Positions 5,176-18,277 of a stretch of 58,841 nt of DNA are shown here, one piece after another. The notes beneath the pieces are model-generated. The model had not been told where the DNA came from. It did not search any database and was given only the letters and a program-made list of their open reading frames with translations. Source of the stretch: a virus (Duplodnaviria > Heunggongvirae > Uroviricota > Caudoviricetes); the IMG/VR virus record IMGVR_UViG_3300023371_000069, one strand, 5' to 3'. The position numbers were made by a program, and so were the translations under genes. Within the stretch, counting starts at the first letter, position 1. Every line of letters starts with the position of its first letter.

Positions 5176-5284
5176 CCGAAATAGGCCCCGGGGTTTTATT
5201 CACATCTGGGGAAAAACACAAAGTCTATAGTCTGCGTCGCGGCGAGCGCACACAGCAAAGGTATTGCCAGCCCCGGCAAAGAGG

Positions 5285-5395
5285 CGCAAAGACACACACA
5301 ACACATCCTCATACATACACAATAATGTATGTATAATAAACAATACACACACAATAATACATACACAATACACACGCTGGGCCGTGCACGTGCGG
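5285..5395. repeat. CA-rich low-complexity tract (ACACA / ATACATACACAATA repeats)
   Basis: The repeats are visible directly. The tract sits at the boundary before the early promoter array. Confidence 0.6.
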
Positions 5396-5465
5396 CGCGG
5401 CCCTAGCTGCCATGCAATAATACCCTACACAAAAAAAGTTCTACACATTTGTGCATCTTACCTAT

Positions 5466-5494
5466 TGACAAACATCCTGTAATGTGGTATACTG
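5466..5494 (+). promoter_or_regulatory. class 1 early promoter (TTGACAAA-17-TGgTATACT)
   Basis: Consensus -35 and extended -10, followed by a leader and an ATG. Confidence 0.6.
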
Positions 5495-5521
5495 TAGATA
5501 CAACAAAGGAACAGTGAGGTA

Positions 5522-5803
5522 ATGACAATGAGTGAGAAGGTACTGTGTGTGCTGTGTGCTATACTACTGGTAGTGACCTTCAATGCACTAGGTCAAGCAC
5601 AGCTTAATGATAGGTACACAAGAGAAGCTGTGGTAGTAGAGGTAGAGGGTAACACCATCAGCGCAGAGGACACCACAGGCAATGTGTGGTGCTATGATGT
5701 AGAGGGTGACACTGTACCATGTGTAGGCACAAGGGTAGTGCTAACCATGCTAGCCATGGGCAGTGATACTATCTATGATGACAGAGTAGTAGATGTAGAG
5801 TAA
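5522..5803 (+). CDS. small secreted or lipoprotein-like protein
   Basis: Has an N-terminal signal-like hydrophobic segment. It is promoter-driven and ends in TAA. Confidence 0.5.
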   Translation: MTMSEKVLCVLCAILLVVTFNALGQAQLNDRYTREAVVVEVEGNTISAEDTTGNVWCYDVEGDTVPCVGTRVVLTMLAMGSDTIYDDRVVDVE

Positions 5804-5926
5804 GGTACACAGCCTTACTCTATTATACTATGTAGTAGTAGCCACCGAGCACAGGCGTCAGGTCCCCTAGTGGGGCATACTGTAGGGGGTGCTAAAAAAA
5901 AGTTGCGTAAATAAGCAAAAAAACTC

Positions 5927-5955
5927 TTGACAAAAAGCTCCCGTAATGCTATAAT
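5927..5955 (+). promoter_or_regulatory. class 1 early promoter
   Basis: TTGACAAAaagctcccgtaaTGcTATAAT. Confidence 0.6.
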
Positions 5956-6008
5956 AAAGACACAAAGAGAGAGGGACACAACCTCACAGAGTAAAGGAGA
6001 TAACAACA

Positions 6009-6164
6009 ATGACCATTTCTAACAACATCGCTATGTGGATTGCTAACAGCAACCTTGACAATACTACTACTTGTCCTGAGTGGCTGGGTATCACTCTTGT
6101 GGCTCTAGTCGTAGCCTTTGGCGTAGCTGCTATTGCCACTATCATCGCTGTCAACAAGAACTAA
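6009..6164 (+). CDS. small membrane protein (51 aa)
   Basis: ATG follows AAGGAGA. It has one transmembrane helix and ends in TAA. Confidence 0.5.
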   Translation: MTISNNIAMWIANSNLDNTTTCPEWLGITLVALVVAFGVAAIATIIAVNKN

Positions 6165-6181
6165 TAGAGGAGGACAAGACA

Positions 6182-6403
6182 ATGAACAAGAGACCTATCA
6201 ACAAGATGCTGAGCACAGTAAGAGAGCTAAAGCCTGAGGTGCAGGCAAGCCATCAGTACAAGTACATCATCATGGTACTGAACAAGGACAACGAGGACAT
6301 CACCTACGCAGAGAAGCTGATGGTGAGAGACAACCTGCGTGTGCTGTGTAAGGTAGCAGGTGTGTCCTATGAGAGACTGCTGATGAGGGTGTGCCAAGAG
6401 TAA
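6182..6403 (+). CDS. hypothetical protein
   Basis: ATG has GAGGAGG upstream and lies in frame within track ORF 6080..6403. Confidence 0.5.
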   Translation: MNKRPINKMLSTVRELKPEVQASHQYKYIIMVLNKDNEDITYAEKLMVRDNLRVLCKVAGVSYERLLMRVCQE

Positions 6404-6443
6404 GGCACACCCTTTAATTGTGCAATGTGACGAATCCCGCCAT

Positions 6444-6468
6444 AGGCGCGCCAACGGTCCTGGCGCGC
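6444..6468. terminator. GC-rich hairpin (GGCGCGCC...GGCGCGCC)
   Basis: Perfect inverted repeat. It is the first of a family of GC hairpins placed after early operons. Confidence 0.5.
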
Positions 6469-6553
6469 CCTAATTGCCAGTATAACACATCCCAGCCATT
6501 TTGTCAAGAGGAAAATTAGAAAAAAAATAAATAATTATTTTTCCCAAAAGGTA

Positions 6554-6582
6554 TTGACAAATCGGTCTCCGTGTGGTATACT
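6554..6582 (+). promoter_or_regulatory. class 1 early promoter
   Basis: TTGACAAAtcggtctccgtgTGgTATACT. Confidence 0.6.
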
Positions 6583-6615
6583 AAGTACAACAAAAGAACA
6601 AAGGAGCTAAACACC

Positions 6616-6939
6616 ATGAAGAAGATTACCAAGACTGCCGAAGAGACCAAGAGAGACGAACTCGTCATCGCTACTCGCAATGCAAAGGACAAGATTGAGT
6701 ACTGTGTGAGAGTCATCAACCGCAGACAGAAGGCAATGGCTATGTTGCCCCAAGAGTCCGCAGAATACAAGATGTTTGCGGGCGATGTAACCGAGGATAA
6801 ATGGGTACTGGTTTCCGCTCTGCGTAGCTACGACAGAGCAAGGGAAGAACTGGCTGAGCACTGCCGAGCCTACCACCTCGCAGGAAATACTTTCCTTTCT
6901 GGCTATGAACTTTTGGAAATTCTCGCAGAAAAGGCTTGA
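6616..6939 (+). CDS. hypothetical protein
   Basis: ATG follows the leader aaaggagctaaacacc. Confidence 0.5.
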   Translation: MKKITKTAEETKRDELVIATRNAKDKIEYCVRVINRRQKAMAMLPQESAEYKMFAGDVTEDKWVLVSALRSYDRAREELAEHCRAYHLAGNTFLSGYELLEILAEKA

Positions 6940-6964
6940 CAAAAGCCTTTCTCTGTGATACAAT
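6936..6964 (+). promoter_or_regulatory. class 1 early promoter
   Basis: TTGACAAAagcctttctctgTGaTACAAT. Confidence 0.55.
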
Positions 6965-6990
6965 GTAGGTACAAAAGGAAAGGAACTGAA

Positions 6991-7431
6991 ATGAAAATGA
7001 TTTACTGTGGCTATCAGGGTAGTGGAAAATCTACCTACTGTAGAAATAACCCCAATACTACTGTTGACCTCGACAGCTCCGCATTTGTCAAGGTCGCAGG
7101 ATGGGAAGAAAACTATGTGCGGACGGCGGTTGCCCTCGCTACTGACAAGAATGTATTCATCTCCGCTCATCGTGTGGTGATTGAATACTGCATGAACAAC
7201 AACATTCCCTTTGTTATCCTCGCACCCTCGCAGAGCAAAGAGGCTTGGCGTGCTCGTCTTGAGTTCCGCTACCACAAGAACCCCATCCTCGCAAACTTTA
7301 AGGCAATCGCAGACTTCGAACAAAATTTCGACAACGACCTGCAATACTATCGCCTTTTGGAAAGCAAGGGCATTTGCGTGCGGTGGATTGAAGCCACAGT
7401 TGTGACAAACATTGGCGAAAAAATTTTTTGA
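6991..7431 (+). CDS. P-loop NTPase (putative nucleotide or polynucleotide kinase)
   Basis: Walker A motif GYQGSGKST near the N-terminus. ATG follows aaggaaaggaactgaa. Confidence 0.5.
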   Translation: MKMIYCGYQGSGKSTYCRNNPNTTVDLDSSAFVKVAGWEENYVRTAVALATDKNVFISAHRVVIEYCMNNNIPFVILAPSQSKEAWRARLEFRYHKNPILANFKAIADFEQNFDNDLQYYRLLESKGICVRWIEATVVTNIGEKIF

Positions 7432-7438
7432 AAAGGGG

Positions 7439-7467
7439 TTGACAAAACCCCTTTCCCGTGTTATAAT
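7439..7467 (+). promoter_or_regulatory. class 1 early promoter
   Basis: TTGACAAAacccctttcccgTGtTATAAT. Confidence 0.6.
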
Positions 7468-7498
7468 TAAGATACAAAAAGAGAGGAGAGTAAATCAA

Positions 7499-7825
7499 AT
7501 GTTAAAGAGCATGAGCATCACCGTGAGTTTCACCGACCACTGCTACACCGAACGCAGAGAAAGACTTGTAAAAATGGATAGAGAGTTAGGCTTCGGCGAA
7601 ATCATTTGCACCACAATTTACAGAGGAAAGAGAAACTGCTTGACTTCCACTGGTATCTTAATGGTAATGGATGCCAAGAGCAACATTCTTGTCACCGCCT
7701 ACCCTGCAAGATGGAAGATTGCCTGCAAGATGTTCTACGAAACTACTGGTGGTTATCCTCCTGCTGGTTACTCTGAAATCATCAGACGGGCAAAAGCATG
7801 GGACTGTGAAAATAATTGGATTTAG
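7499..7825 (+). CDS. hypothetical protein
   Basis: ATG follows agagaggagagtaaatcaa. Confidence 0.5.
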   Translation: MLKSMSITVSFTDHCYTERRERLVKMDRELGFGEIICTTIYRGKRNCLTSTGILMVMDAKSNILVTAYPARWKIACKMFYETTGGYPPAGYSEIIRRAKAWDCENNWI

Positions 7826-7828
7826 GGG

Positions 7829-7857
7829 TTGACAAATCCCTAAATCTATGGTATAAT
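7829..7857 (+). promoter_or_regulatory. class 1 early promoter
   Basis: TTGACAAAtccctaaatctaTGgTATAAT. Confidence 0.6.
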
Positions 7858-7887
7858 TTAATTACAAAAAGAAAAGAGGTAAACGAA

Positions 7888-8043
7888 ATGAGTAAGAAAA
7901 AGAAAAACACAATCGACCGCAGAATGTTCAAGAAAGAGGGAGAAGAACTTCAGCAGTATCTCCACTTTCGCAAGCGTGGCTCTGTGGTAGAAAGCAAGAA
8001 GAAATACAACAGACAGAAATTCAAAAGGGGTGATAATGGATGA
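7888..8043 (+). CDS. small basic protein
   Basis: ATG follows aaaagaggtaaacgaa. The protein is Lys/Arg-rich. Confidence 0.45.
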   Translation: MSKKKKNTIDRRMFKKEGEELQQYLHFRKRGSVVESKKKYNRQKFKRGDNG

Positions 8044-8264
8044 TTATTAAAGGGGCAGATGGTGAGTACGAAGCCACATGGAAGCTCGGCGAAGACTATG
8101 TTCATGTAGTCTATCGAAAGATAATTCATCCCAATTGGCCCATTTTCCGCACAAAATACTACTATTGCACAGTAATTCACAAAGAAGATTTCAACCAGAA
8201 GCGAGTGCGGGATGCTCTCCTTGTTAGAGAACATTACGAAAAAAAATGTGCTTGCGGGGGTTGA
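8040..8264 (+). CDS. hypothetical protein
   Basis: Overlaps the previous stop with ATGA. Confidence 0.45.
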   Translation: MIIKGADGEYEATWKLGEDYVHVVYRKIIHPNWPIFRTKYYYCTVIHKEDFNQKRVRDALLVREHYEKKCACGG

Positions 8265-8289
8265 CAAAATCCCCAAACCATGTTATAAT
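8261..8289 (+). promoter_or_regulatory. class 1 early promoter
   Basis: TTGACAAAatccccaaaccaTGtTATAAT. Confidence 0.6.
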
Positions 8290-8309
8290 AATGCCAAGAG
8301 GTGAGAACA

Positions 8310-8540
8310 ATGAAAACAGCAGCAGAAATAGCACGAGAGTGGCAAGCACAATTGCGTGACCCTCGCATTAGATGTCCTAACTGCGGGAGTAGTGCCCAAT
8401 CCGAACTGGTGTACCAGGACAATACAAGCAACCGCAGAGAGAAAAAAGACGATTACATTTGCGGGTGCGGGTGTCGGTTCAGGGCACATTTTACACTCAT
8501 TCAAACCGAGATACTGGAAATCGAAGCGCCTTACTACTAA
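8310..8540 (+). CDS. Zn-ribbon protein
   Basis: CPNCGS...CGCGC motifs. A hairpin terminator follows. Confidence 0.5.
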   Translation: MKTAAEIAREWQAQLRDPRIRCPNCGSSAQSELVYQDNTSNRREKKDDYICGCGCRFRAHFTLIQTEILEIEAPYY

Positions 8541-8593
8541 GGCGCTTTTTCCATTTTGCTTTTTCGGTCGCGCGCCCACGGCCCAGGCGCGCG
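8524..8593 (+). terminator. tandem hairpins (AAGCGCC..GGCGCTTTTTCC and the GC-rich CGCGCGCCC..GGGCGCGCG)
   Basis: Inverted repeats with a T-run after the first. Confidence 0.5.
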
Positions 8594-8599
8594 TTATTT

Positions 8600-8760
8600 C
8601 CATTATACCACAGCCCCAGCAATTTGTCAATAGGCAATTTGCACAAAAAATAAATAGTTGTTTTTCCTAAAATTGTGCTTGACTTTCTATTCCGGATGTG
8701 ATACAATGTTCTTGTGGTTGAGAGAGACCACTAAATCAAAAAAAAGTTCAAGAAAATGAA
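8600..8760. repeat. conserved intergenic unit, also seen near 6470, 10390, 12560, 14210, 15815, 17150 and 18165
   Basis: Shared sequence block (tTTCCATTATACCAC.GCCCCAGCAATTTGTCAA.AGG...TTGCACAAA...). Read on the minus strand it gives TTGACA-17-TGGTATAAT. A plus-strand promoter TTGACT-17-TGATACAAT lies at its end. Confidence 0.5.
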
Positions 8761-8769
8761 AAAAAGTTC

Positions 8770-8798
8770 TTGACAAACCGGGAAACTGGTGTTATAAT
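8770..8798 (+). promoter_or_regulatory. class 1 early promoter
   Basis: TTGACAAAccgggaaactggTGtTATAAT. Confidence 0.6.
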
Positions 8799-8835
8799 TA
8801 AGATACAAAAAGGAACTGAAAAGGAGATAATAACA

Positions 8836-9309
8836 ATGACTAAGGGTAATTTCTTCCGCTACTACAACAAGCTGACTGGCGCTGACCGCACTCTGATTTT
8901 CTTCGAGCGCAAGGGTATCATCTACATCTACAACTGCAAGCACATCGCTCCTCGTTGGGCACACGAAGAATTTGAGTCCTCCAAGAACGGCGGACAGCAG
9001 AAATTCAAGATGTACATCAGCGTATCCGAAAAGGATAAGCTGATTGCCAAGGGTGCAACCCCCATCATGACCAAGGCTGAATTTGAAGCCATTCCTTACA
9101 AGAACAAGGGTCACAAGTGCGAAGCCTATCTGCACAAGGCTTGCGGTCTGGGTGAGTACACTCCCGACCATGTCCGCTTTGACTACTGCGGTGATGTGGA
9201 AATCGGTGGCGTTCAGTATCAGGTCAAGTACGAAAACGCAAGCCTGACCAATGTGGATGTGCTCCACAAGGCACAGAAGCGGGCAAGAGAAATGAAAAAG
9301 GGAAAGTAA
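8836..9309 (+). CDS. hypothetical protein
   Basis: ATG follows aaaaggagataataaca. A hairpin of the form GGGAAAG..CTTTCCC follows the stop. Confidence 0.5.
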   Translation: MTKGNFFRYYNKLTGADRTLIFFERKGIIYIYNCKHIAPRWAHEEFESSKNGGQQKFKMYISVSEKDKLIAKGATPIMTKAEFEAIPYKNKGHKCEAYLHKACGLGEYTPDHVRFDYCGDVEIGGVQYQVKYENASLTNVDVLHKAQKRAREMKKGK

Positions 9310-9339
9310 AAAAAACTTTCCCTTTTTTCAAAAAAGGTA

Positions 9340-9368
9340 TTGACAAATCACGGTTTTGGGTGTATAAT
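9340..9368 (+). promoter_or_regulatory. class 1 early promoter
   Basis: TTGACAAAtcacggttttggGTgTATAAT. Confidence 0.6.
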
Positions 9369-9399
9369 TAAGGTACAAAAAGGAAAGGAACTGATACAA

Positions 9400-9852
9400 A
9401 TGGCAAAGCAGATGAACATCACAATTAACTTCGACATGGACGGCACAATCGCTGACCTCTATGGTGTAGAGAACTGGCTCGAATACCTCATCGCAGGTGA
9501 CACTTTCCCCTACGCAAACGCAAGACCTCTGCTCCACCTCTCCGCACTGGCTCGCAAGCTGAACGCACTTCAGCGGAACGGCTACAACCTCGCAGTTATC
9601 TCTTGGTTGAGCAAAAGTGGAACTGCTGAATACAACGAAGCAGTTACCGAAGTCAAGCTGAACTGGCTGAGAAAGCACCTGCCGAGCGTGAACTGGAACG
9701 AAATCCACATCGTTCCCTATGGCACTCCGAAGCAGAACTTCTGCAACAATCCTCTCGACATTCTGTTCGACGATGAAGAACGCAACAGAACGAACTGGAC
9801 AGGCAGAGCCTACGATGTGCAGAACATCTTGGAAATTCTCAGAGAAATCTGA
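9400..9852 (+). CDS. HAD-superfamily hydrolase (5'(3')-deoxyribonucleotidase-like)
   Basis: N-terminal FDMDGTIADL is the HAD DxDGT motif. The protein is about 150 aa. Confidence 0.55.
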   Translation: MAKQMNITINFDMDGTIADLYGVENWLEYLIAGDTFPYANARPLLHLSALARKLNALQRNGYNLAVISWLSKSGTAEYNEAVTEVKLNWLRKHLPSVNWNEIHIVPYGTPKQNFCNNPLDILFDDEERNRTNWTGRAYDVQNILEILREI

Positions 9853-9862
9853 GAATTTCCTC

Positions 9863-9892
9863 TTGACAAACGGCAATTGATGTGCTATAATT
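9863..9892 (+). promoter_or_regulatory. class 1 early promoter
   Basis: TTGACAAAcggcaattgaTGTGcTATAAT. Confidence 0.6.
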
Positions 9893-9922
9893 AAGACACA
9901 AAGAAGAAAGGAACTGATAAAA

Positions 9923-10072
9923 ATGTTAGAAATGATTTGCGCAATCCCCGAAGAAATCGGCTGGGCATTGGTTGGCTTTGTCGGAGCATTCGCCTTGATG
10001 ATGGCTGTCAAGGTCGGCAAGATAATCGTTGAAGCAATCAAAGAAAGATTGGAGGATGATGAAGAATGCTGA
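9923..10072 (+). CDS. small membrane protein (49 aa)
   Basis: ATG follows the leader. It has one transmembrane helix and ends in TGA. Confidence 0.45.
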   Translation: MLEMICAIPEEIGWALVGFVGAFALMMAVKVGKIIVEAIKERLEDDEEC

Positions 10073-10335
10073 AAACTGGAATTGTAGTTTGCCCCACTTG
10101 CGGGGGCGAGGTTGTTGAGTTCGATACTCTCGACATTGAGGTGGACAACACCACTGTGACCCTCTTTAAGGTTGGCGAGTGCGACCACTGCGGAAACCAT
10201 TACCAGTGGCACGAGGAATACACCCTTGCAGGATACCGCGACCTGGAACAGACCCAGGGCGAAAGCGAGGACGAGCCCGATGCGGACGAATGCGGGTTCG
10301 ACCCCTTCGCAGGTTGTTATACTTACGACTGCTGA
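10066..10335 (+). CDS. Zn-ribbon/acidic protein
   Basis: CPTCGG...CDHCG motifs. Ends in TGA. Confidence 0.45.
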   Translation: MLKTGIVVCPTCGGEVVEFDTLDIEVDNTTVTLFKVGECDHCGNHYQWHEEYTLAGYRDLEQTQGESEDEPDADECGFDPFAGCYTYDC

Positions 10336-10446
10336 AAAAGCAGTCGTTTGTTTTTGGCGGCGCGCTCACGGTCCAGGCGCGCCGATTTTCGTCAGAATAA
10401 CCAGTTTCAACAATTTTCCGTGCAATTTATTTGTGCAAAATAACAG

Positions 10447-10475
10447 TTGACAAATCCCAAAAGGTGTGATACAAT
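10447..10475 (+). promoter_or_regulatory. class 1 early promoter
   Basis: TTGACAAAtcccaaaaggtgTGaTACAAT. Confidence 0.55.
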
Positions 10476-10505
10476 AGTATCAACAAAGGAAAGGAACTGA
10501 TACAC

Positions 10506-10910
10506 ATGAAACTGGTTTACGATTGCGGACAATCCATCTCTCTGTCTCCTCGCAGAGATTTTGAAGAAACTTCTATTTGGTGGCACCTGCACCTGCTCGA
10601 TGCGGAAGAATCCCTCGACCGCACCAACCGCACTTACTACGACACTTTCGAGAGCTTTTTTGAAGCGGTCTGTGAAAACAAGGTAAGAAATGCAGAAGCC
10701 TACATCGGTCTGTTCAAGACCCCCAAGGTATTGGTGAAATGTGGCATGAACCACTATACTGTCACCAAGAGGAACTTCAAAGAGGTGTGCGTGTGGAACT
10801 ACACCAAAGAAGTCTCCCACCTGCCCATGTCCACCCTCATGGACAAACTTCCTGCGGACGAGTTCGCAGAATACCTGCGTGAAAGGGGAGTAGCCTTACA
10901 GCAAGGCTAA
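10506..10910 (+). CDS. hypothetical protein
   Basis: ATG follows aaaggaaaggaactgataca. Confidence 0.5.
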   Translation: MKLVYDCGQSISLSPRRDFEETSIWWHLHLLDAEESLDRTNRTYYDTFESFFEAVCENKVRNAEAYIGLFKTPKVLVKCGMNHYTVTKRNFKEVCVWNYTKEVSHLPMSTLMDKLPADEFAEYLRERGVALQQG

Positions 10911-10934
10911 TCCCCGGAAAAATTAAAAAAAGGT

Positions 10935-10964
10935 ATTGACAAATCAAACAATCTGTGCTATAAT
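10935..10964 (+). promoter_or_regulatory. class 1 early promoter
   Basis: TTGACAAAtcaaacaatcTGTGcTATAAT. Confidence 0.6.
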
Positions 10965-10994
10965 AAATTTATCAAGTGAAAGGAAATGATACCA

Positions 10995-11654
10995 ATGTTT
11001 ACTGAAAAAACTTTTGCAATTATCGACACTGAAACCCTCGGCGGTGCTTCTCAGGCGCACTGCCCTACCTACCACTGCGCTGGCATTGCTTTCACCAAGA
11101 GAGCAGAAATCAGCAGAATCAACATCGTGGTCATCGGCAACCTACTTTTGGATTCTGCGTTCTATGGCAAATTCAAAAAAGACTACTACCGCGACCTGCT
11201 CCGCGACCCTGCAACTATTATCTGCTACAACGAAGCAGAGGCAAGCGAAATCTTCTCTGCGTGGCTTGCTGAAAACAATGTGTCCTGCGCCTGCGCCCAC
11301 AACAGCGGTTTTGACTTCAACAAGACTTTCGTTGCTGAGTGTATCGAGGGAATGGAATTCATCGACACTTGGCAGGCATTTTTCGAGACCATCGGCAAGT
11401 ACACCAAGTACAACAAATTCTGCTGTGAAAATGGCTTTGTAACCAAGAGCGGAAACGTTCAGATGACCGCAGAAATCTGCTACCGCTTCATCAGCGGAGA
11501 CATTGAGTTCGTCGAGGAACACACCGCCCTCGCAGATTGTGAAATCGAAATGCAGATTCTGCGTGCGGTTTGGGCAACTCACCGCAAGTTTACTCGCAAT
11601 GTTCACAAGGGCGATTCCGCCTATCGCTTCCAAGTGGTCAAGGGCAGATTCTAA
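10995..11654 (+). CDS. DEDD-family 3'-5' exonuclease (DnaQ/RNase T-like)
   Basis: Exo I motif AIIDTETLG, Exo II motif HNSGFDF and Exo III motif HTALADCE. Confidence 0.6.
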   Translation: MFTEKTFAIIDTETLGGASQAHCPTYHCAGIAFTKRAEISRINIVVIGNLLLDSAFYGKFKKDYYRDLLRDPATIICYNEAEASEIFSAWLAENNVSCACAHNSGFDFNKTFVAECIEGMEFIDTWQAFFETIGKYTKYNKFCCENGFVTKSGNVQMTAEICYRFISGDIEFVEEHTALADCEIEMQILRAVWATHRKFTRNVHKGDSAYRFQVVKGRF

Positions 11655-11666
11655 AATCTGCCCTCC
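11641..11666 (+). terminator. hairpin terminator
   Basis: AGGGCAGATTCTAAAATCTGCCCT. Confidence 0.5.
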
Positions 11667-11682
11667 CGGGCGAAAAAAGGTA

Positions 11683-11712
11683 TTGACAAATTCAAAATCA
11701 TGTGCTATAATT
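11683..11712 (+). promoter_or_regulatory. class 1 early promoter
   Basis: TTGACAAAttcaaaatcaTGTGcTATAAT. Confidence 0.6.
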
Positions 11713-11743
11713 AACTCAGAAAACAAGAAAGGAACTGACAGTA

Positions 11744-12151
11744 ATGACTTGGGCAGAACATTTGGAAGCTATGCGAAATACTCCCGCATTTATTAACGAA
11801 GCAAACCCCCTGCGCTTCTCTGCACCCGAAAGCGAAGGTTTGTACCTTGTAGGTAGCACCAATTTCAATCCCTTTACCCATGAAGAAATCTATTTGGTAA
11901 AGGTTGGTAAAAGCTACAACCTGCAACGCAGAATGAAAGATTATCTCACCACCAACCCTGGAATGTTCCACATTGATTTTTGTACCATTCCCCGCCCCAT
12001 GGTCGGCAAGTCCGAATGGCAGTGCCACGCAATTTTGTATGCAGTTTGCAAAGGCAAGGTAGAAAAAAGCGAAGAGTGGGTGAGAGTAAGCCGAGAGGTT
12101 TATCTCGAAATCTGCGAAAAGGGTTTCAAATATTTTTCTGAAAGAATGTAA
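11744..12151 (+). CDS. hypothetical protein
   Basis: ATG follows the leader. Ends in TAA. Confidence 0.5.
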   Translation: MTWAEHLEAMRNTPAFINEANPLRFSAPESEGLYLVGSTNFNPFTHEEIYLVKVGKSYNLQRRMKDYLTTNPGMFHIDFCTIPRPMVGKSEWQCHAILYAVCKGKVEKSEEWVRVSREVYLEICEKGFKYFSERM

Positions 12152-12158
12152 AAAACCC

Positions 12159-12188
12159 TTGACAAACCCCCAAGAGTGTGCTATAATA
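12159..12188 (+). promoter_or_regulatory. class 1 early promoter
   Basis: TTGACAAAcccccaagagTGTGcTATAAT. Confidence 0.6.
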
Positions 12189-12239
12189 AATACAACAAAG
12201 GGAAAGGAAAATCCCAAACACCAGAAAGGAAATGATACC

Positions 12240-12482
12240 ATGATGAACTACAAGTATGTTGTTGAGAGCTTCTACGATGATGCCAAGGTCACTGTCGAAA
12301 CCAACGACCCCGAGGTCGCAGTTCTGGAAATGATGCAGAGGGACATGGATGGTGTCCACGCCCACTGCGTTGATGGTCTGACTGGCGAAGTCCTCGCCCT
12401 CGTCAACCACCCCGACCAGTTCGTCCAGTCTGAGTTCGCTCTGATGACCCTGGGTGTGCTGATGGCACACCTGGCAAAGTAA
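12240..12482 (+). CDS. small acidic protein
   Basis: ATGATG start follows aaaggaaatgatacc. Confidence 0.5.
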   Translation: MMNYKYVVESFYDDAKVTVETNDPEVAVLEMMQRDMDGVHAHCVDGLTGEVLALVNHPDQFVQSEFALMTLGVLMAHLAK

Positions 12483-12760
12483 CAAACCAAGAGCCATCCC
12501 GCAAGGGGTGGCTTTTTCATTTCAATTTTTGGGCGCGGCGCCCTCGGATGTGGGCGCCGGAATTTCCATTATACCACACCGCCAGCAATTTGTCAAGAGA
12601 AAAGTTACACAAAGTTTGATTGATTTGAATTCCTGTTTTTGTGCATTATTACCTATTGACTTTTGGTGCGGTCTGTGGTATACTATCATTGTCAAGGGGA
12701 GATAGGTGAGCCTGCCCCCAAGGGCGAAAAAAAAATCTCAAAAAAAATTGAGAAAACCCC

Positions 12761-12789
12761 TTGACAAACCCCTTAAAGTGTGATACAAT
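12761..12789 (+). promoter_or_regulatory. class 1 early promoter driving a non-coding transcript
   Basis: TTGACAAAccccttaaagtgTGaTACAAT. No ORF follows within about 220 nt. Confidence 0.5.
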
Positions 12790-12799
12790 AAGGGTACAA

Positions 12800-13020
12800 A
12801 AGGCGAGGGCAAGGCGACCACGAAAAGGTGGGTGCCCACGAGAGCGAGTAAGACCTTGTTACCAATGACCCGACCGCAAGGTGTTCCTGTTTGCGGAATA
12901 CAAATGTGAACCAGACCACGCAGGCTGAAAAAATGTCGTGGATACGCAGGATACAAAAGCCAATTTCTTTGGTGGTGAAAGCGGACTCACCCTAACTGTG
13001 GCTTAAAGGCTCAGCCAAGC
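12800..13020 (+). ncRNA. candidate promoter-driven small RNA (about 220 nt, A-rich 3' end)
   Basis: Lies downstream of a consensus promoter. No start-codon-initiated ORF is present, and the tract ends in an A-run just before the next promoter. Confidence 0.3.
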
Positions 13021-13047
13021 CAAAGAAAAAAAAATTAAAAAAAACTC

Positions 13048-13076
13048 TTGACAAACAAATCAAGATGTGCTATAAT
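13048..13076 (+). promoter_or_regulatory. class 1 early promoter
   Basis: TTGACAAAcaaatcaagaTGTGcTATAAT. Confidence 0.6.
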
Positions 13077-13155
13077 AAGTATGTAAAGAGGAAAACCTCT
13101 TACAAATAAATTCATCGACAGGTTCAAGTCGTTAAAACCGAAAGGAATTGATACT

Positions 13156-13515
13156 ATGGCTAACAACAAGAAGATGACCAAGGCTGACTACTTCAAGCAG
13201 ATTTCTGCCAACTACCCTCTGACTGCCGATGAGCAGGCTTTCATCGCCCACGAACTGGAACTGCTCGCCAAGAAGAACTCTGCGGAAAAGAAGCCGACCG
13301 CACAGCAGGTGGCAAACGCAGGTGTCGCTGATGCCATCGTCAATGCGATGGAAGATGGTGTCCTCTACACCATCACCGACCTCATCAAGACTGTTCCTGC
13401 GTGTGCGGAACTGACCAACCAGCGTGTTTCTGCCATCGTGCGTGGTATGATTGGCACCAAGGTTGAGCGTGTCGAGGAAAAGCGTAAGGCATACTTCCGC
13501 AAGATTGCGGAGTAA
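13156..13515 (+). CDS. early protein family A, copy 1
   Basis: Paralogous to 16185..16553 and 17720..18088. Shares ELELLAKKNSAEKKPTAQQ and PACAELTNQRVSAIVRG. Confidence 0.55.
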   Translation: MANNKKMTKADYFKQISANYPLTADEQAFIAHELELLAKKNSAEKKPTAQQVANAGVADAIVNAMEDGVLYTITDLIKTVPACAELTNQRVSAIVRGMIGTKVERVEEKRKAYFRKIAE

Positions 13516-13586
13516 GCCTACTCCCCCAAGGGCAGGGGGTAACCCCTGCCCACCTTGACCCCGGCGAAAAAATTTTCAAAAAGCAC

Positions 13587-13615
13587 TTGACAAATCCCTC
13601 TGTCTGTGCTATACT
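13587..13615 (+). promoter_or_regulatory. class 1 early promoter
   Basis: TTGACAAAtccctctgtcTGTGcTATACT. Confidence 0.6.
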
Positions 13616-13640
13616 ATAATCACAGAAAGGAAGTGAGTCA

Positions 13641-14000
13641 ATGCTTGATGAAAAGTTAATTGCCAAGCACATGGCAAGCCTCGGCATCAGCCGAGAGGAA
13701 GCAATCCAGTTGATTGAGGATGACAAAGCAATCGACAGGGGCGCAAAGATGTTTGAGCTTGACCCCGAACTTGAGAAAGGCGCAAAAAAGGCAAGACAAG
13801 CCGAGCGCAAGGTCAGCACCACCCCAGTGAAGCGAGAGAAGAAAGCCAAGCCTGAAAAGGCTGAAATCTGCTCCGCAATGATGGATGGTCTGCGAGTTTT
13901 GGGTGTGGAAGATTTCACCATCAACAACCCCGAACGCGAGTTCTTGTTCATCCACAATGGAACGAAGTACAAGGTCACACTTGCCTGCCCTCGTTCCTAA
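13641..14000 (+). CDS. early protein family B, copy 1
   Basis: Paralogous to 16670..17041 through the EEA.QLI.DDKAIDRG motif. Confidence 0.55.
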   Translation: MLDEKLIAKHMASLGISREEAIQLIEDDKAIDRGAKMFELDPELEKGAKKARQAERKVSTTPVKREKKAKPEKAEICSAMMDGLRVLGVEDFTINNPEREFLFIHNGTKYKVTLACPRS

Positions 14001-14266
14001 GGCTCCTAAGGGGTCGAGCCAATCGGCCCCATTCCATTGGCGGTGTGCTGTCATCGTCTGGAGGTAAACCACTAGGGGGAAGGCGCCCAACCCTGGGGTA
14101 TGGTACTAAAACAAAACAGCCGAGAAAAGACCCAGGGGGGCGCCCTTGGGTCTTCGTCATTTTGCACAAAAATTCGGCCGCGCGCTGACGTACGCCAGCG
14201 CCGGTTTTTCGGCGAAATAACCAGTTTCAACAATTTTTGGGGCGAAATCTTTGTGCAAATTGACTA

Positions 14267-14295
14267 TTGACATTTCCCATTATCGGGTGTATAAT
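14267..14295 (+). promoter_or_regulatory. class 1 early promoter
   Basis: TTGACAtttcccattatcggGTgTATAAT. Confidence 0.55.
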
Positions 14296-14324
14296 AAGGG
14301 TACAAAGTCAAGGAGGTAACAACA

Positions 14325-14507
14325 ATGGGTATGACTTACAAGCAGTTCATGGACTACGCAATGCAGAACTACTGCAACGGCGGTGATTGTGTGGTCGAGT
14401 GTTGGGATGAACTCTCTTTCCGCTACTACTGCGAAGAGTTCGGTCCGATGACCAAGGAAAAGGCTGACAGTCTCTTCCGCACTTACCGCGGTTGTGGGGG
14501 GTACTAA
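14325..14507 (+). CDS. small Cys-containing protein
   Basis: ATG follows aaggaggtaacaaca. Confidence 0.5.
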   Translation: MGMTYKQFMDYAMQNYCNGGDCVVECWDELSFRYYCEEFGPMTKEKADSLFRTYRGCGGY

Positions 14508-14542
14508 TTCCCCACAAAAGAAAAAAAGTTTCAAAAAACCTA

Positions 14543-14572
14543 TTGACAAACATCCAAAAGTGTGCTATAATA
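14543..14572 (+). promoter_or_regulatory. class 1 early promoter
   Basis: TTGACAAAcatccaaaagTGTGcTATAAT. Confidence 0.6.
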
Positions 14573-14602
14573 ATTACAGAAAACAAGAAAGGAACTGATA
14601 CT

Positions 14603-15490: not shown

Positions 15491-15769
15491 ATGAAAGCAA
15501 CTGGAATTATCCGCAGAGTTGATGACCTCGGCAGAGTGGTTATCCCCAGAGAAATCCGTCGGTCAATGGGCATCCGCGAGGGCGAACCCCTCGAAATCTT
15601 CATCGATGGCAGAGATACTGTCTGCTTCCGCAAGTACGAAGCCAATCTGAATGGCGAAATTGACCATCTGGTGGACACCATCGAAACCTGCGTGGACGAC
15701 TACGAAAAGATGGCACAAATCAAGAAGCTTCTGGGCGAAGTGCGGAAGCTGGTGAAAAGCGAGGAGTAA
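15491..15769 (+). CDS. AbrB-family transition-state regulator/antitoxin-like protein
   Basis: GIIRRVDDLGRVVIPREIRRSMGIREGEPLEIF closely matches the AbrB/SpoVT N-domain. Confidence 0.6.
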   Translation: MKATGIIRRVDDLGRVVIPREIRRSMGIREGEPLEIFIDGRDTVCFRKYEANLNGEIDHLVDTIETCVDDYEKMAQIKKLLGEVRKLVKSEE

Positions 15770-16008
15770 AACCCTCGCTTTTTGCGCGGCCCGGGCGCGA
15801 CTGTGCCCGGCCGAATTTACCATTATACCATGCCCCGCACAATTTGTCAAGAGGAAATGTTGCACAAAATAATCTTTTTAATTTTCCTGTAATTTGTGCA
15901 GTTTGCCTATTGCAATTCGCTTTTGGATGTGGTATACTATCTATGTCAGTAAGGGAGAGACCCAAGCGGACAGACCGAAAAAAAGTTTGAAAAACTTAAA
16001 AAAACCTC

Positions 16009-17075: not shown

Positions 17076-17373
17076 TTTTTCCAAATTAAATTTAAATTTG
17101 TGCAATTTGCACAAAAATCGGCCGGCCGCACACAGATGTGCGGCCCGGTATTCGGCAAAATGCACAAGTTCAACAAGTTTTTTACCCAATTATTTGTACA
17201 ACATTACCACTTGCATTTTCCTAAAAATCTGCTATAATTAGTAGTGTCAAGGGGATGAAGTAAACCCCCGCAGATGGGTCGGCGCAGAGGGTTGAAAAAT
17301 GTTGGGCAGAGGGGTTAGATTGTCCCACCAATCAGACCACCGAAACTTTTTCAAAAAACTTTTGAAAAACCAC

Positions 17374-18136: not shown

Positions 18137-18277
18137 GCGCCGTGCGCCAACGAGTGTGGCGCCCGGAATTCGTCAAAATAACTAGTCCCCGTAAATTTCC
18201 AATCGAATTTTTTGTGCAGTTTGTCATCTTGATTTTTCCCGCAATTGGTGGTATACTAATCCTAAGAGGTGAGGCAA

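What the first reader, a model, noticed from the sequence alone, without database searches (positions are those of the whole stretch)
8524..8760. Repeated roughly 180-bp intergenic unit: GC-hairpin terminator facing an antisense promoter, plus a short plus-strand transcript
After several early operons (about 6440, 8545, 10340, 12525, 14170, 15785, 17120, 18135) there is a GC-rich perfect hairpin. It is followed by a conserved block tTTCCATTATACCAC.GCCCCAGCAATTTGTCAA.AGG. Read on the minus strand this block is TTGACA-17-TGGTATAAT, a strong promoter firing back into the hairpin. About 80 nt later a plus-strand promoter (TTGAC/TT-17-TGgTATACT/TACAAT) starts a 40-70-nt transcript with its own small hairpin (for example 8712-8760, 12690-12740, 15930-15990). 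The convergent arrangement suggests antisense or small-RNA regulation, or transcriptional-interference insulators between early operons.
Basis: seen in the sequence. Interest (0 to 1): 0.6.

Follow-up and report, generated by a model that had tools for sequence, protein, structure and literature searches.

The report
Operon-boundary cassette with backward-facing promoter
Between the early operons of this uncultivated gut (probably rumen) phage sits a repeated control cassette: two terminators in tandem, the second a very GC-rich hairpin, and at half the sites a perfect host-type promoter that fires backwards into that hairpin; this probably seals operon ends and makes antisense RNA, a variant of known phage designs, with no transcript data yet.

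Summary
Partly confirmed. GC-rich hairpins exist at all eight named sites, plus 5379 and 19771, and only in the early region. The conserved block with a minus-strand TTGACA-17-TGnTATAAT promoter is present at four sites only (-35 at 6507, 8630, 12596, 15850). The other four carry a homologous stretch without promoter hexamers. Each hairpin lies 10-35 nt after an ordinary terminator and has a T-rich tail on the plus strand only.

Relatives at 70-80% DNA identity keep the unit. Their stems differ in sequence but stay paired (7/7 pairs with double changes; 0/500 shuffles). The antisense hexamers are invariant in 26 diverged copies, and the -10 sits 6-9 nt from the stem, so the antisense RNA would start with the hairpin.

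The "short plus-strand transcripts" are not supported. No terminator follows those promoters. They belong to a second promoter class with a TTGTGCAA box, and their leaders run into the next gene-proximal promoter.

Best reading: a boundary cassette of tandem terminators plus back-to-back promoters, whose leftward arm makes a 5'-hairpin-capped cis-antisense RNA and a head-on barrier. The anatomy is solid; the function is inferred. No match in Rfam or among cultured phages. I rate it a new variant of known kinds (T4-type PeSL cassettes, lambda oop-type antisense RNA).

The parts
8523..8556 (+). T1: ordinary intrinsic terminator of gene 8310-8540 (stem 8523-8548, stop codon in the loop, then TTTTTCCATTTTG)
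   Evidence: Terminator scan; sequence. A T1 of this kind lies 10-35 nt upstream of the GC hairpin in 28 of 31 antisense-promoter units in the window and its relatives.
8569..8593 (+). GC hairpin 'T2' of unit 2: CGCGCGCC-cacggccca-GGCGCGCG, followed by TTATTTCC
   Evidence: Covariation across 41 unique hairpins. The tail is T-rich on the plus strand only.
8598..8630 (-). Antisense class II promoter of unit 2: -35 TTGACA 8630-8625, 17-nt spacer ending in TG, -10 TATAAT 8607-8602. The predicted start is near 8595, 1-2 nt before the hairpin.
   Evidence: 12/12 match with TG. Hexamers are invariant in 26 diverged copies. The -10 lies 6-9 nt from the stem.
8639..8646 (-). TTGTGCAA box, about 15 nt upstream of the -35 of the antisense promoter
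   Evidence: There are 10 copies in the window against 3.3 expected, and 9 of them lie in the early intergenic units.
8679..8707 (+). Plus-strand upstream promoter of unit 2 (TTGACT-17-TGATACAAT), back to back with the antisense promoter
8714..8769 (+). Leader of that promoter. It has a 5'-terminal hairpin at 8714-8731 (GTGGT..ACCAC) and then an A-rich stretch that doubles as the UP element of the next promoter. No terminator.
8770..8798 (+). Class I gene-proximal promoter (TTGACA-17-TGTTATAAT) for gene 8836-9309
6445..6469 (+). GC hairpin of unit 1 (GGCGCGCCA-acggtcc-TGGCGCGCC)
6479..6507 (-). Antisense promoter of unit 1 (TTGACA-17-TGTTATACT)
12489..12520 (+). T1 terminator of gene 12240-12482
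12536..12559 (+). GC hairpin of unit 4 (CGGCGCCC-tcggatgt-GGGCGCCG)
12568..12596 (-). Antisense promoter of unit 4 (12/12 with TG). Box variant TTGTGTAA at 12605-12612.
12656..12684 (+). Class II plus promoter of unit 4 (box TTTGTGCA at 12640). Its leader 12691-12760 carries the SD-like run GTCAAGGGGAG, with no ORF and no terminator. The class I promoter follows at 12761-12789.
15758..15784 (+). T1 terminator of the AbrB-like gene 15491-15769
15787..15813 (+). GC hairpin of unit 6
15822..15850 (-). Antisense promoter of unit 6 (12/12 with TG). TTGTGCAA box at 15860-15867.
15910..15938 (+). Class II plus promoter of unit 6 (TTGCAA-17-TGGTATACT). Class I promoters follow at 16009-16037 and 16106-16134.
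10358..10384 (+). GC hairpin of unit 3 (type B: no antisense promoter; tail ATTTTCG). The plus promoter with its box is at 10432-10475.
14182..14201 (+). GC hairpin of unit 5 (type B). It is flanked by AAAAATTC and GGTTTTTCGG and is flagged by the terminator scan. The plus promoter is at 14267-14295.
17124..17145 (+). GC hairpin of unit 7 (type B; GGCCGCACA-caga-TGTGCGGCC). It is preceded by the palindromic box pair 17098-17114. The plus promoter is at ~17211-17238.
18140..18166 (+). GC hairpin of unit 8 (type B). The plus promoter at 18229-18257 drives the small gene 18278-18448.
5379..5403 (+). First GC hairpin, at the start of the early region, followed by the box-bearing promoter at 5465

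Best explanation
WHAT IT IS. The unit is an operon-boundary cassette of the phage's early (host-RNA-polymerase-transcribed) region. Read left to right it holds five parts. (1) The ordinary intrinsic terminator T1 of the upstream operon. (2) A second, extremely GC-rich hairpin 10-35 nt later, with a short T-rich tail on the plus strand only; it is oriented like a back-up terminator (T2). (3) At half of the boundaries, a consensus housekeeping-sigma (sigma-A/sigma-70-type) promoter on the minus strand, whose -10 lies 6-9 nt from the hairpin. (4) Back to back with it, a plus-strand promoter of the same class. This 'class II' has a TTGTGCAA box about 15 nt upstream of the -35 and a TGGTATAaT-type -10. 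(5) A leader that runs into the ordinary A-tract-UP 'class I' promoter and the next gene.

HOW IT PROBABLY WORKS. Plus-strand polymerases stop at T1. Those that read through meet T2 together with a polymerase bound at, or leaving, the backward promoter. That polymerase's footprint would cover T2 (a footprint inferred from textbook promoter geometry, not measured), so the boundary is sealed. The backward promoter would also make a cis-antisense RNA. It begins with the GC hairpin, and a 5'-terminal stem-loop is a known protection against 5'-end-dependent decay in Firmicutes. It continues across the complement of T1 and the last codons of the upstream gene. It could therefore pair with the 3' end of that operon's mRNA and lower its stability, in the manner of lambda oop, through double-strand cleavage.

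THE PLUS-STRAND 'SHORT TRANSCRIPTS'. These are not separate RNAs. They are 5' leaders of the class II promoters. Several carry a Shine-Dalgarno-like polypurine run near the 5' end with no ORF, which resembles known 5' stabilisers.

SHOWN VERSUS INFERRED. Shown: the anatomy, its copy number, its conservation, the covariation of the hairpin, and the invariance of the promoter hexamers. Inferred: that the promoters fire, where transcripts start and end, and every functional consequence.
For: Far beyond chance: 4 minus-strand and 27 plus-strand promoters with >=11/12 matches and TG in 14.7 kb, against 0.003 expected.

All four minus-strand promoters sit directly beside a GC hairpin.

Relatives at 66-87% DNA identity carry the same unit at syntenic and other boundaries. 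In 26 non-identical copies, TTGACAAA, TG and TATAAT (one TATACT) are invariant while the spacer varies.

The distance from the -10 to the stem is fixed at 6-9 nt.

Hairpin: 41 unique hairpins with 23 different outer stems are 97.6% Watson-Crick paired, against 54% with shuffled partners. The formal count gives 7/7 pairs with changes on both sides, 53 such cells, covariation score 0.576 against 0.163, 0/500 shuffles as high, and all slid registers far lower.

Orientation: the 9 nt after the stem hold 4.4-4.9 T on the plus strand in every class of unit. The 9 nt before the stem hold only 0.6 A in units that have the antisense promoter alone.

A canonical T1 precedes 28 of 31 such units.

Predicted antisense RNAs fold into a 5'-terminal GC hairpin plus the reverse T1 hairpin, with z-scores of -3.4 to -5.1.

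The two promoter classes and the box are tabulated. Leaders with GTCAAGGGGAG-type runs recur in relatives, and no terminator precedes the next promoter.

Literature: 5' 'roadblocks' stabilise RNA against RNase J1, and sense/antisense pairs are digested by RNase III in Firmicutes (PMC3997798). lambda oop is a leftward RNA whose sequence overlaps the end of cII by 52 bases and is linked to RNase III-dependent cleavage (PMC5869508).
Against: No transcript evidence of any kind is available.

Half of the boundaries (type B) keep the hairpin but have no antisense promoter, and they keep that state in relatives. The backward promoter is therefore not needed for a boundary as such.

The T2 tail is short (3-6 T), and the terminator scan flagged only one of the T2 hairpins.

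The antisense RNA has no consistent terminator. Only 11 of 28 reverse T1 hairpins are followed by a U-rich stretch, so its length is undefined and it would collide with heavy sense transcription.

Strand asymmetry of wobble pairs is weak (23 G-T against 13 A-C, many not independent). It does not settle which strand's RNA is under selection.

In relatives, some plus-strand promoters abut the hairpin with the -10 only 1-4 nt from the stem. In those cases the hairpin cannot be a complete 5' cap.

Within operons the phage tolerates promoter-after-promoter read-through, so the need for strong insulation is unclear.
Confidence: 0.45

Rival explanations
1. Recombination cassette (PeSL-like). The repeated terminator/promoter sequences matter mainly as short homologies at which gene cassettes of the early region are swapped between phages. 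The backward promoter is an inverted copy of the class II promoter, carried along without a role of its own.
For: The unit is repeated 8-10 times per genome, in two related forms. Relatives are mosaics: homologous blocks end at promoters or gene starts. For example, homology between the window and L010 runs over 8367-8844, breaks across gene 8836-9309, and resumes at 9338-9925. Units also cross-match non-syntenic units. Gene content between units differs among relatives. T4-type phages have exactly such composite promoter/stem-loop motifs, which are implicated in indels in hyperplastic regions (PMC4122927, PMC2839356).
Against: Copies within one genome are only 64-78% identical over about 75 nt, with at most about 15-nt identical runs. 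That is poor substrate for homologous recombination. A passenger promoter would decay, yet -35, TG and -10 are invariant in 26 diverged copies while the spacer drifts. The -10 to stem distance is held at 6-9 nt. I did not map breakpoints rigorously.
Confidence: 0.2
2. The RNAs are the point. The units encode small trans-acting or decoy RNAs: hairpin RNAs from the backward promoter and/or short plus-strand RNAs. They would act on host targets, for instance as sponges or as mimics of a structured host RNA such as a CRISPR repeat.
For: Very strong promoters with no ORF behind them. Stable predicted folds for the antisense RNAs. The leader of unit 4 folds with z = -6. Highly transcribed non-coding loci are reported in the early regions of other Firmicute phages (PMC12282133).
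Against: Apart from base pairing, nothing downstream of the antisense start is conserved. Stems, loops and spacers differ from copy to copy, and a trans target would demand conserved sequence. There is no Rfam hit, including the CRISPR direct-repeat families, even at E<=5. The plus-strand leaders lack terminators. Three of the four lack a significant fold.
Confidence: 0.1
3. DNA-level element. The GC palindrome with its adjacent promoter acts in replication or DNA structure. Examples are a transcription-primed origin or R-loop (as at T4 and T7 origins), or a cruciform, with the TTGTGCAA boxes serving as initiator sites.
For: Stems are almost perfectly Watson-Crick on both strands (686 of 729 pairs), as expected if DNA or both strands matter. 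An AT-rich stretch with inverted boxes lies between the divergent promoters. In relatives, promoters can flank the palindrome on either or both sides.
Against: There are 8-10 copies spread over 14 kb, always at operon ends and always just after a terminator. The tail asymmetry (T-rich on one side only) is an RNA-terminator property, not a cruciform property. Cumulative GC skew shows no turn inside the region.
Confidence: 0.07
4. No special function. The units are leftovers of segmental duplication, and the minus-strand matches are promoter-like by descent only.
For: The region holds paralogous genes (three 119-122-aa paralogs; D10, D13 and D17), so duplication has occurred. Four of the eight units have lost (or never had) the promoter hexamers.
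Against: Hexamers are perfectly kept in 26 non-identical copies at 70-80% overall identity. Compensatory changes occur in all seven stem pairs. Both unit types are stable at syntenic sites in relatives.
Confidence: 0.05

Closest known systems
PeSL (promoter-early stem-loop) motifs of T4-type phages (Arbiol et al. 2010, PMC2839356; Comeau et al. 2014, PMC4122927)
   Same: Both are small composite terminator/promoter motifs repeated between small, variable early genes. Both are read by the host polymerase and sit in a mosaic, fast-changing part of the genome.
   Different: PeSLs are a stem-loop plus a promoter on the same strand, in phages of Gram-negative hosts. Here there are two hairpins in tandem and two promoter classes. 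At half of the sites there is also a promoter on the opposite strand aimed at the hairpin. There is no sequence relationship, and a role in recombination was not shown here.
lambda oop RNA (also P22 sar; 3'-overlapping antisense RNAs of type I toxin-antitoxin loci such as txpA/RatA and par of Enterococcus)
   Same: In each case a promoter placed just beyond the end of a gene fires back towards it. The resulting antisense RNA covers the 3' end and terminator region of the convergent mRNA. oop is transcribed leftward from pO, overlaps 52 bases of the cII 3' end, and is linked to RNase III-dependent cleavage (PMC5869508).
   Different: oop, sar and the antitoxin RNAs have defined terminators and defined lengths. 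Here only 11 of 28 units offer a U-rich stop. The upstream genes here are not small hydrophobic toxins. The element is multicopy, and the RNA would begin with a GC hairpin that also looks like a sense-strand terminator.
5' stabilisers of Firmicute mRNAs (5'-terminal stem-loops; STAB-SD of cryIIIA; the polypurine stabiliser of phage SP82 early RNA). Cited from my own knowledge; the general principle is in PMC3997798.
   Same: The predicted antisense RNA starts 0-3 nt before a strong stem-loop. Several class II plus-strand leaders carry an SD-like run (AAGGGGAG) near the 5' end without an ORF.
   Different: This is a resemblance in sequence position only. Stability was not measured. Unit 2's plus leader has a small hairpin instead of the polypurine run.
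Tandem intrinsic terminators and convergent-promoter transcriptional interference (collision, occlusion)
   Same: T1 followed by a second hairpin with a T-rich tail. A strong promoter aimed head-on at residual read-through.
   Different: The second hairpin has a sub-canonical U-tract. The interference partner here is not a regulated gene pair but a promoter with no gene behind it.

Membership tests
Housekeeping-sigma (sigma-A/sigma-70-type) promoter, for the minus-strand block | -35 TTGACA and -10 TATAAT separated by 17 +/- 1 bp | tested here: met
   12/12 matches at 8630, 12596 and 15850; 11/12 at 6507; spacer 17. Relatives have spacers of 17 or 18.
Housekeeping-sigma (sigma-A/sigma-70-type) promoter, for the minus-strand block | Extended -10 (TGn), typical of strong Firmicute promoters | tested here: met
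   TG is present in all four window copies and invariant in 26 copies.
Housekeeping-sigma (sigma-A/sigma-70-type) promoter, for the minus-strand block | Hexamers conserved more than spacer and flanks across relatives | tested here: met
   In alignment A1 the invariant columns are TTGACAAA, TG and TATA.T, while the spacer columns vary.
Housekeeping-sigma (sigma-A/sigma-70-type) promoter, for the minus-strand block | A transcript starting about 7 nt downstream of the -10 | not testable with these tools
   No RNA data are available. The predicted starts are near 6472, 8595, 12561 and 15815.
Intrinsic (Rho-independent) terminator, for the GC hairpin | Stable GC-rich stem-loop downstream of a transcription unit, on the sense strand | tested here: met
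   Stems of 7-11 bp with >=85% G+C, -15 to -25 kcal/mol, at every operon end.
Intrinsic (Rho-independent) terminator, for the GC hairpin | U-tract immediately 3' of the stem | tested here: inconclusive
   There are 3-6 T in the 9 nt after the stem (AATTTCC, ATTTTCG, GTTTTTCGG), and only on the plus strand. The consensus scan, which requires >=5 T in 8, accepted only 14182-14201.
Intrinsic (Rho-independent) terminator, for the GC hairpin | 3' ends of transcripts map there | not testable with these tools
   Needs Term-seq or in vitro termination assays.
PeSL cassette of T4-type phages | Composite stem-loop plus early promoter, repeated between small early ORFs | tested here: met
   In addition, several class I promoters have the -35 in the loop of a hairpin (6920-8300; read).
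PeSL cassette of T4-type phages | Promoter and stem-loop on the same strand, serving consecutive genes | tested here: not met
   This does not hold for the antisense promoter, which has no gene behind it. It does hold for the plus-strand promoters of the unit.
PeSL cassette of T4-type phages | Indels and replacements between close relatives bounded by the motifs | tested here: inconclusive
   BLAST blocks end near promoters and gene starts, and units cross-match. Breakpoints were not mapped base by base.
PeSL cassette of T4-type phages | Sequence or lineage relationship to T4-type phages | tested here: not met
   No DNA or protein match in 50,697 phage records.
oop/sar-type cis-antisense RNA | Promoter downstream of, and convergent with, the target gene | tested here: met
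   This holds for the four window units and for 31 antisense-promoter units in the window and its relatives.
oop/sar-type cis-antisense RNA | Defined terminator giving a discrete short RNA | tested here: inconclusive
   The reverse T1 is followed by >=4 U in 11 of 28 units. In the window this is plausible for units 4 and 6, weak for unit 2 and absent for unit 1.
oop/sar-type cis-antisense RNA | Pairing-dependent, RNase III-linked reduction of the target mRNA | not testable with these tools
   Needs genetics or biochemistry.
Any curated RNA family (Rfam 15), including CRISPR direct-repeat families | Covariance-model match | tested here: not met
   No match at gathering score in the units. No unit-associated match at E<=5 in 5200-20200.

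The most novel reading that the evidence does not exclude
The backward promoters and their hairpin-capped antisense RNAs form a co-regulated, RNA-based timing device. A factor that reads the TTGTGCAA box would switch on all class II promoters together. At each boundary the leftward arm would then destroy the mRNA of the operon just finished (antisense pairing at its terminator and 3' end). The rightward arm, with its stabilising leader, would boost the next operon. Early expression would thus be handed along the region, operon by operon. A related point comes from relatives, where plus-strand promoters sit with the -10 only 1-4 nt from the hairpin. Their transcripts would start inside the terminator stem, which suggests 'terminators that are blind to their own promoter' as a design principle.
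Probability: 0.12. Interest if true: 0.7.

Novelty: new variant of a known kind. Interest (0 to 1): 0.4.

Why it matters
If the backward promoters are active, this phage clade marks the ends of selected early operons with a multicopy three-part lock: a terminator, a GC hairpin and a head-on promoter. It would also make a family of antisense RNAs that are defined by structure rather than sequence. The clade is uncultivated, abundant in ruminant and other gut metagenomes, and probably infects Oscillospiraceae/Ruminococcus-type Clostridia.

That would give a compact, testable model for how a phage that depends on host polymerase partitions and times some 30 very strong promoters. It would also offer ready-made parts (insulators, 5' stabilisers) for engineering Firmicutes.

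If the promoters are inactive, or merely by-products, the finding reduces to a well-documented example of repeated terminator/promoter cassettes, which is ordinary.

Tried and rejected
(1) Rfam, at gathering thresholds and at E<=5: nothing in the units.

(2) Cultured phages: no hit by megablast over 13 kb, by sensitive blastn with unit 2, or by tblastn with the 122-aa paralog. The exact unit pattern gave no hit in IMG/VR.

(3) RNAalifold on a plain MAFFT alignment of 26 antisense units returned no structure, because the stems were out of register. I replaced it with my own register-anchored count and with the count of structure pairs on length-normalised hairpins. For those, only the outer 7 bp of each arm and 6 inner bases were kept, as described. 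Caveat: the hairpins were collected through a G+C filter followed by a hairpin finder, so the percentage paired is partly ascertained. The diversity of stems and the compensatory changes are not.

(4) G-T versus A-C wobble asymmetry, used to tell which strand's RNA is selected: 23 against 13, not independent, so not decisive.

(5) The reverse T1 as a terminator for the antisense RNA: inconsistent, 11 of 28.

(6) Small ORFs behind the antisense or class II promoters: none conserved. Examples are a 5-codon and a 14-codon frame that relatives do not share.

(7) CRISPR-repeat mimic (RNA anti-CRISPR) idea for the GC hairpins: the stems differ from copy to copy and there is no CRISPR-DR hit. Dropped.

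(8) Type I toxin-antitoxin reading: the upstream proteins are not small hydrophobic peptides. Dropped as membership and kept as an architectural analogy.

(9) Host origin of the unit: the promoter pattern CTCTTGACA-N14-TGGTATAAT is common in Oscillospiraceae, Ruminococcus and other Clostridia MAGs, in front of tRNA genes and other genes. It is never followed there by a GC hairpin. The promoters therefore imitate strong host promoters, but the cassette belongs to the phage.

(10) The 250-nt ORF-less stretch after promoter 12761: no significant fold (z -1.35).
Full report
CONTEXT

The window is part of a large, uncultivated phage genome. It carries 39 tRNA genes, a ROOL RNA and a release-factor gene. 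I found no relative among 50,697 deposited phage genomes. Near-identical and related contigs of 100-190 kb are common in gut metagenomes, several with ruminant or other herbivore labels.

Between about 5.4 and 19.9 kb, every small plus-strand gene has its own near-perfect host-type promoter. I count 27 promoters with at least 11 of 12 consensus positions plus the TG extension, where 0.003 are expected on both strands together. This is an early, host-polymerase-dependent region. The same promoter type is frequent in Oscillospiraceae, Ruminococcus and other Clostridia MAGs, in front of tRNA and other genes. That suggests the host group.

CHECK OF THE OBSERVATION

Two more lie at 5379 and 19771. 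Of 11 such G+C-dense stretches in the first 21 kb, 10 belong to these boundary elements; further dense stretches later in the window lie mostly in tRNA genes and the ROOL RNA.

The minus-strand promoters have their -35 at 6507, 8630, 12596 and 15850. The units at 10358, 14182, 17124 and 18140 align with the others through the hairpin and about 45 nt beyond. At the positions of the -10 and -35, however, they read AGAATA/GAAATA and TTCCGT/TTTGGG, so they hold no promoter.

The GC hairpin (8569-8593) is a second element behind it. This layout is general. A canonical hairpin-plus-T-run terminator lies 10-35 nt upstream of the GC hairpin in 28 of 31 units that carry the antisense promoter.

ANATOMY OF UNIT 2, THE FINDING'S COORDINATES

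- Gene 8310-8540.
- T1 at 8523-8556.
- GC hairpin at 8569-8593 (CGCGCGCC/GGCGCGCG with a 9-nt loop), followed by the tail TTATTTCC.
- Minus-strand promoter with -10 at 8602-8607 and -35 at 8625-8630.
- A TTGTGCAA box at 8639-8646, on the minus strand.
- An AT-rich stretch.
- Plus-strand promoter at 8679-8707.
- Leader at 8714-8769.
- The gene-proximal promoter at 8770-8798.
- Start codon at 8836.

TWO PROMOTER CLASSES

The upstream sequences sort the promoters into two classes.

Class I is gene-proximal. It has phased A-tracts (GAAAAAnTTTTCAAAAAcCTC) before TTGACAAA, and TGTGCTATAAT as its -10 region.

Class II has the box TTTGTGCA about 15 nt before the -35, and TGGTATAAT or TGGTATACT as its -10 region. 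It is the first promoter after each boundary.

Three of the four antisense promoters are class II as well. The fourth (6507) has no box. The box motif occurs 10 times in the window against 3.3 expected, and 9 copies lie in these intergenic units, including a perfect palindrome at 17098-17114. I take it to be a protein-binding site, but I could not test that.

COMPARATIVE EVIDENCE

I fetched early regions from relatives through a 122-aa protein that has three paralogs in the window and more than 4,000 homologs. Homologous DNA segments are 66-87% identical and arranged as a mosaic.

The hairpin-plus-antisense-promoter unit recurs in all of them. In 26 non-identical copies the columns TTGACAAA, TG and TATAAT are invariant while the spacer varies. 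The distance from the -10 to the base of the stem is 6-9 nt. A transcript starting at the usual distance would therefore begin 0-3 nt before the hairpin.

The stems differ widely. There are 23 different outer stems among 41 unique hairpins, yet they are 97.6% Watson-Crick paired, against 54% (maximum 65%) when arms are re-paired at random.

A formal count on length-normalised hairpins gave changes on both sides in all 7 pairs and 53 compensated cells. The covariation score was 0.576 against 0.163, none of 500 shuffles was as high, and all slid registers were far lower. Pairing, not sequence, is what is kept.

Both unit types are stable at syntenic positions. Unit 3 is promoter-less in four relatives. 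Units 1, 2, 4 and 6 keep the promoter, in some copies with an 18-nt spacer or without the TG.

WHICH STRAND DOES THE HAIRPIN SERVE?

The stems are nearly perfect on both strands, and wobble asymmetry is weak (23 G-T against 13 A-C).

The flanks are informative. In every class of unit the 9 nt after the stem on the plus strand hold 4.4-4.9 T. The 9 nt before the stem hold only 0.6 A when the antisense promoter alone is present. The hairpin is thus built like a plus-strand terminator with a short U-tract, a back-up to T1. It is not a terminator for the antisense RNA.

In relatives, some class II promoters lie on the left of the hairpin in the plus orientation, with the -10 only 1-4 nt from the stem. 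In a few units promoters lie on both sides. Transcripts from such left-hand promoters would start inside the stem and so escape the hairpin. That again fits a terminator aimed at transcripts coming from further upstream.

THE PREDICTED ANTISENSE RNAs

From about 6472, 8595, 12561 and 15815, the first 110 nt fold into the 5'-terminal GC hairpin followed by the reverse of T1 (z -3.4 to -5.1).

A U-rich stretch follows the reverse T1 in units 4 and 6. It is weak in unit 2 and absent in unit 1. Across relatives, 11 of 28 units have one. The RNA may therefore be a discrete molecule of 60-90 nt at some boundaries and an open-ended antisense transcript at others.

Nothing in it is conserved except the pairing of the hairpin. 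That argues against a trans-acting RNA and is compatible with cis-antisense action.

THE 'SHORT PLUS-STRAND TRANSCRIPTS'

No terminator-like site separates the class II plus promoters from the next class I promoter. There is no Rfam match, and only the unit-4 leader has a markedly stable fold.

In units 0, 3, 5 and 8 the same kind of promoter drives a gene directly.

In units 4, 6 and 7, and in many relatives, the leader begins with a Shine-Dalgarno-like run (GTCAAGGGGAG, GTCAGTAAGGGAGAG) that is not followed by a conserved ORF. In Firmicutes such 5'-proximal ribosome-binding-like sequences, and 5'-terminal stem-loops, protect RNA from 5'-end-dependent decay. The principle is reviewed in PMC3997798; the specific STAB-SD and SP82 examples are from my own knowledge.

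I therefore read these stretches as stabilising leaders of tandem promoters, not as separate small RNAs.

MOST LIKELY MECHANISM

The cassette marks the end of one early operon and the start of the next.

Shown: T1, the GC hairpin with a plus-strand T tail, the conserved backward promoter at a fixed distance from it, and the back-to-back class II promoters with their boxes.

Inferred: read-through past T1 is stopped at the hairpin. This is helped by a polymerase bound at, or leaving, the backward promoter, whose footprint would cover the hairpin.

Also inferred: the backward promoter makes a hairpin-capped, hence long-lived, antisense RNA. It is complementary to T1 and to the last codons of the upstream gene, and it could trigger double-strand cleavage and decay of that mRNA. 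lambda oop is linked to such cleavage of cII mRNA (PMC5869508), and overlapping transcripts are digested this way in Firmicutes (PMC3997798).

Only half of the boundaries have the promoter, and they keep that state in relatives. The antisense arm is therefore more likely a gene-specific control than a requirement of every boundary. I put 0.45 on this combined insulator/antisense reading.

RIVAL EXPLANATIONS

- A PeSL-like recombination cassette with a passenger promoter: 0.2.
- Trans-acting or decoy small RNAs: 0.1.
- A DNA-level origin or cruciform element: 0.07.
- Non-functional duplication relics: 0.05.
- Something not considered: the remainder.

COMPARISON WITH KNOWN SYSTEMS

As an architecture it is closest to two things. 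One is the PeSL promoter/stem-loop cassettes of T4-type phages (PMC2839356, PMC4122927). The other is the oop/sar class of convergent antisense RNAs. It is a member of neither.

The antisense promoter violates the same-strand PeSL layout, and there is no lineage link. The antisense RNA also lacks the defined terminator of oop.

There is no curated RNA family match. I rate it a new variant of known kinds and of moderate interest. The conservation and covariation make it a clean experimental target, but the components (terminators, sigma-A promoters, cis-antisense RNA, 5' stabilisers) are all familiar, and no expression data exist.

Noticed in passing
window 52033-52624 (+): Full-length ROOL RNA (RF03087, 312.6 bits, model positions 1-574 of 574), embedded in the tRNA region of the phage.
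   Followed up: no
window 40706-58671 (+); 56434-56605; 34983-36062: An array of 39 tRNA genes, all on the plus strand. It includes two adjacent tRNAs with a CTA anticodon (amber suppressors; ARAGORN labels them Pyl). A phage-encoded class-I release factor (PCRF + RF-1 domains) lies at 34983-36062. Together these suggest TAG-recoded late genes.
   Followed up: no
window 58280-58363 (+): Partial hit to the OLE RNA model (53.5 bits against a gathering score of 50; model positions 439-592 only). It may be spurious or a tRNA-like fragment.
   Followed up: no
window 22995-58392 (+): A third promoter type, TTGATT-17-TG(A/T)TATAAT, occurs 17 times on the plus strand from 22995 onwards, with minus-strand copies at 19990 and 26964. 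It never occurs among the plus-strand early-gene promoters of 5.4-19.7 kb. It is probably a middle-gene promoter class with an altered -35.
   Followed up: partly
window 6418-18321; palindrome 17098-17114: The motif TTGTGCAA occurs 10 times against 3.3 expected, 9 of them in early intergenic units. It usually lies about 15 nt upstream of the -35 of 'class II' promoters, in either orientation. At 17098-17114 it forms the perfect palindrome TTGTGCAAATTGCACAA. It is a candidate operator for an unidentified regulator.
   Followed up: partly
window 6927-6960, 7431-7462, 7815-7850, 8253-8285: Four consecutive class I promoters have their -35 hexamer in the loop of a hairpin formed by the flanks (e.g. 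AAAGGGG-TTGACAAA-ACCCCTTT, GATTTAGGG-GTTGACAAA-TCCCTAAATC). The stem-loop overlaps the promoter, reminiscent of T4-type PeSL motifs.
   Followed up: no
window 19727-19800: At the end of the early region, promoter 19727-19755 is followed after 15 nt by a GC hairpin with the tail ATTTTCC (19771-19797). This could be a roughly 50-nt RNA or an attenuator. It is conserved in relatives (L007:13356, L010:13648, L012:13418).
   Followed up: partly
window 19880-19990: The minus-strand promoter at 19990 (TTGATT-17-TGTTATAAT) is followed by the terminator 19934-19917 (GCCCGCGTATATGCGGGC + GGTTTTTG). This predicts a minus-strand RNA of roughly 45 nt. The surrounding non-coding region carries repeated CCGACCGGT / CCGATCGGT motifs and is conserved in relatives.
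   Followed up: no
window 5290-5378: A CA-rich, ORF-free stretch (...cacacacaacacatcctcatacatacacaataatgtatgtataataaacaatacacacacaataatacatacacaatacacac) lies immediately before the first GC hairpin of the early region. It might mark a genome end or another boundary.
   Followed up: no
window 12691-12765: The 5' end of the class II leader (GUCAAGGGG) pairs with CCCCUUGAC, which contains the -35 of the next class I promoter. The pairing encloses the A-rich UP region (fold z = -6.0). A weaker version is seen at 17245-17380.
   Followed up: partly
window 12797-13035 (+): Promoter 12761 is followed by about 250 nt with no convincing ORF before the next promoter (13048). The stretch is conserved at about 75% in relatives, but its fold is not unusual (z -1.35).
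   Followed up: partly
window 13156-13515, 16185-16553, 17720-18088: Three paralogous genes of 119-122 aa with no Pfam domain. The family has 4,605 database homologs at E<=0.001, almost all unnamed, and serves as a useful marker for this phage clade.
   Followed up: partly
L004:10880-10995, L004:7682-7790, L007:7944-8020, L010:8452-8530, L017:11004 region: In relatives, plus-strand class II promoters abut the left side of the GC hairpin with the -10 only 1-4 nt from the stem, so the start would lie inside the stem. In some units promoters face each other across a single hairpin, with about 38 bp between the two -10 elements.
   Followed up: partly
window 15491-15769 (+): An AbrB/MazE-type (SpoVT_AbrB fold) DNA-binding protein gene in the early region, immediately upstream of unit 6. 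It is a candidate regulator of the boxed promoters.
   Followed up: no
L019-L138 (bacterial MAG contigs): The pattern CTCTTGACA-N14-TGGTATAAT is common in Oscillospiraceae, Ruminococcus and other Clostridia MAGs, often with the same phased A-tract UP element and often upstream of tRNA genes. The phage's early promoters copy the strongest host promoters, which hints at the host group.
   Followed up: partly
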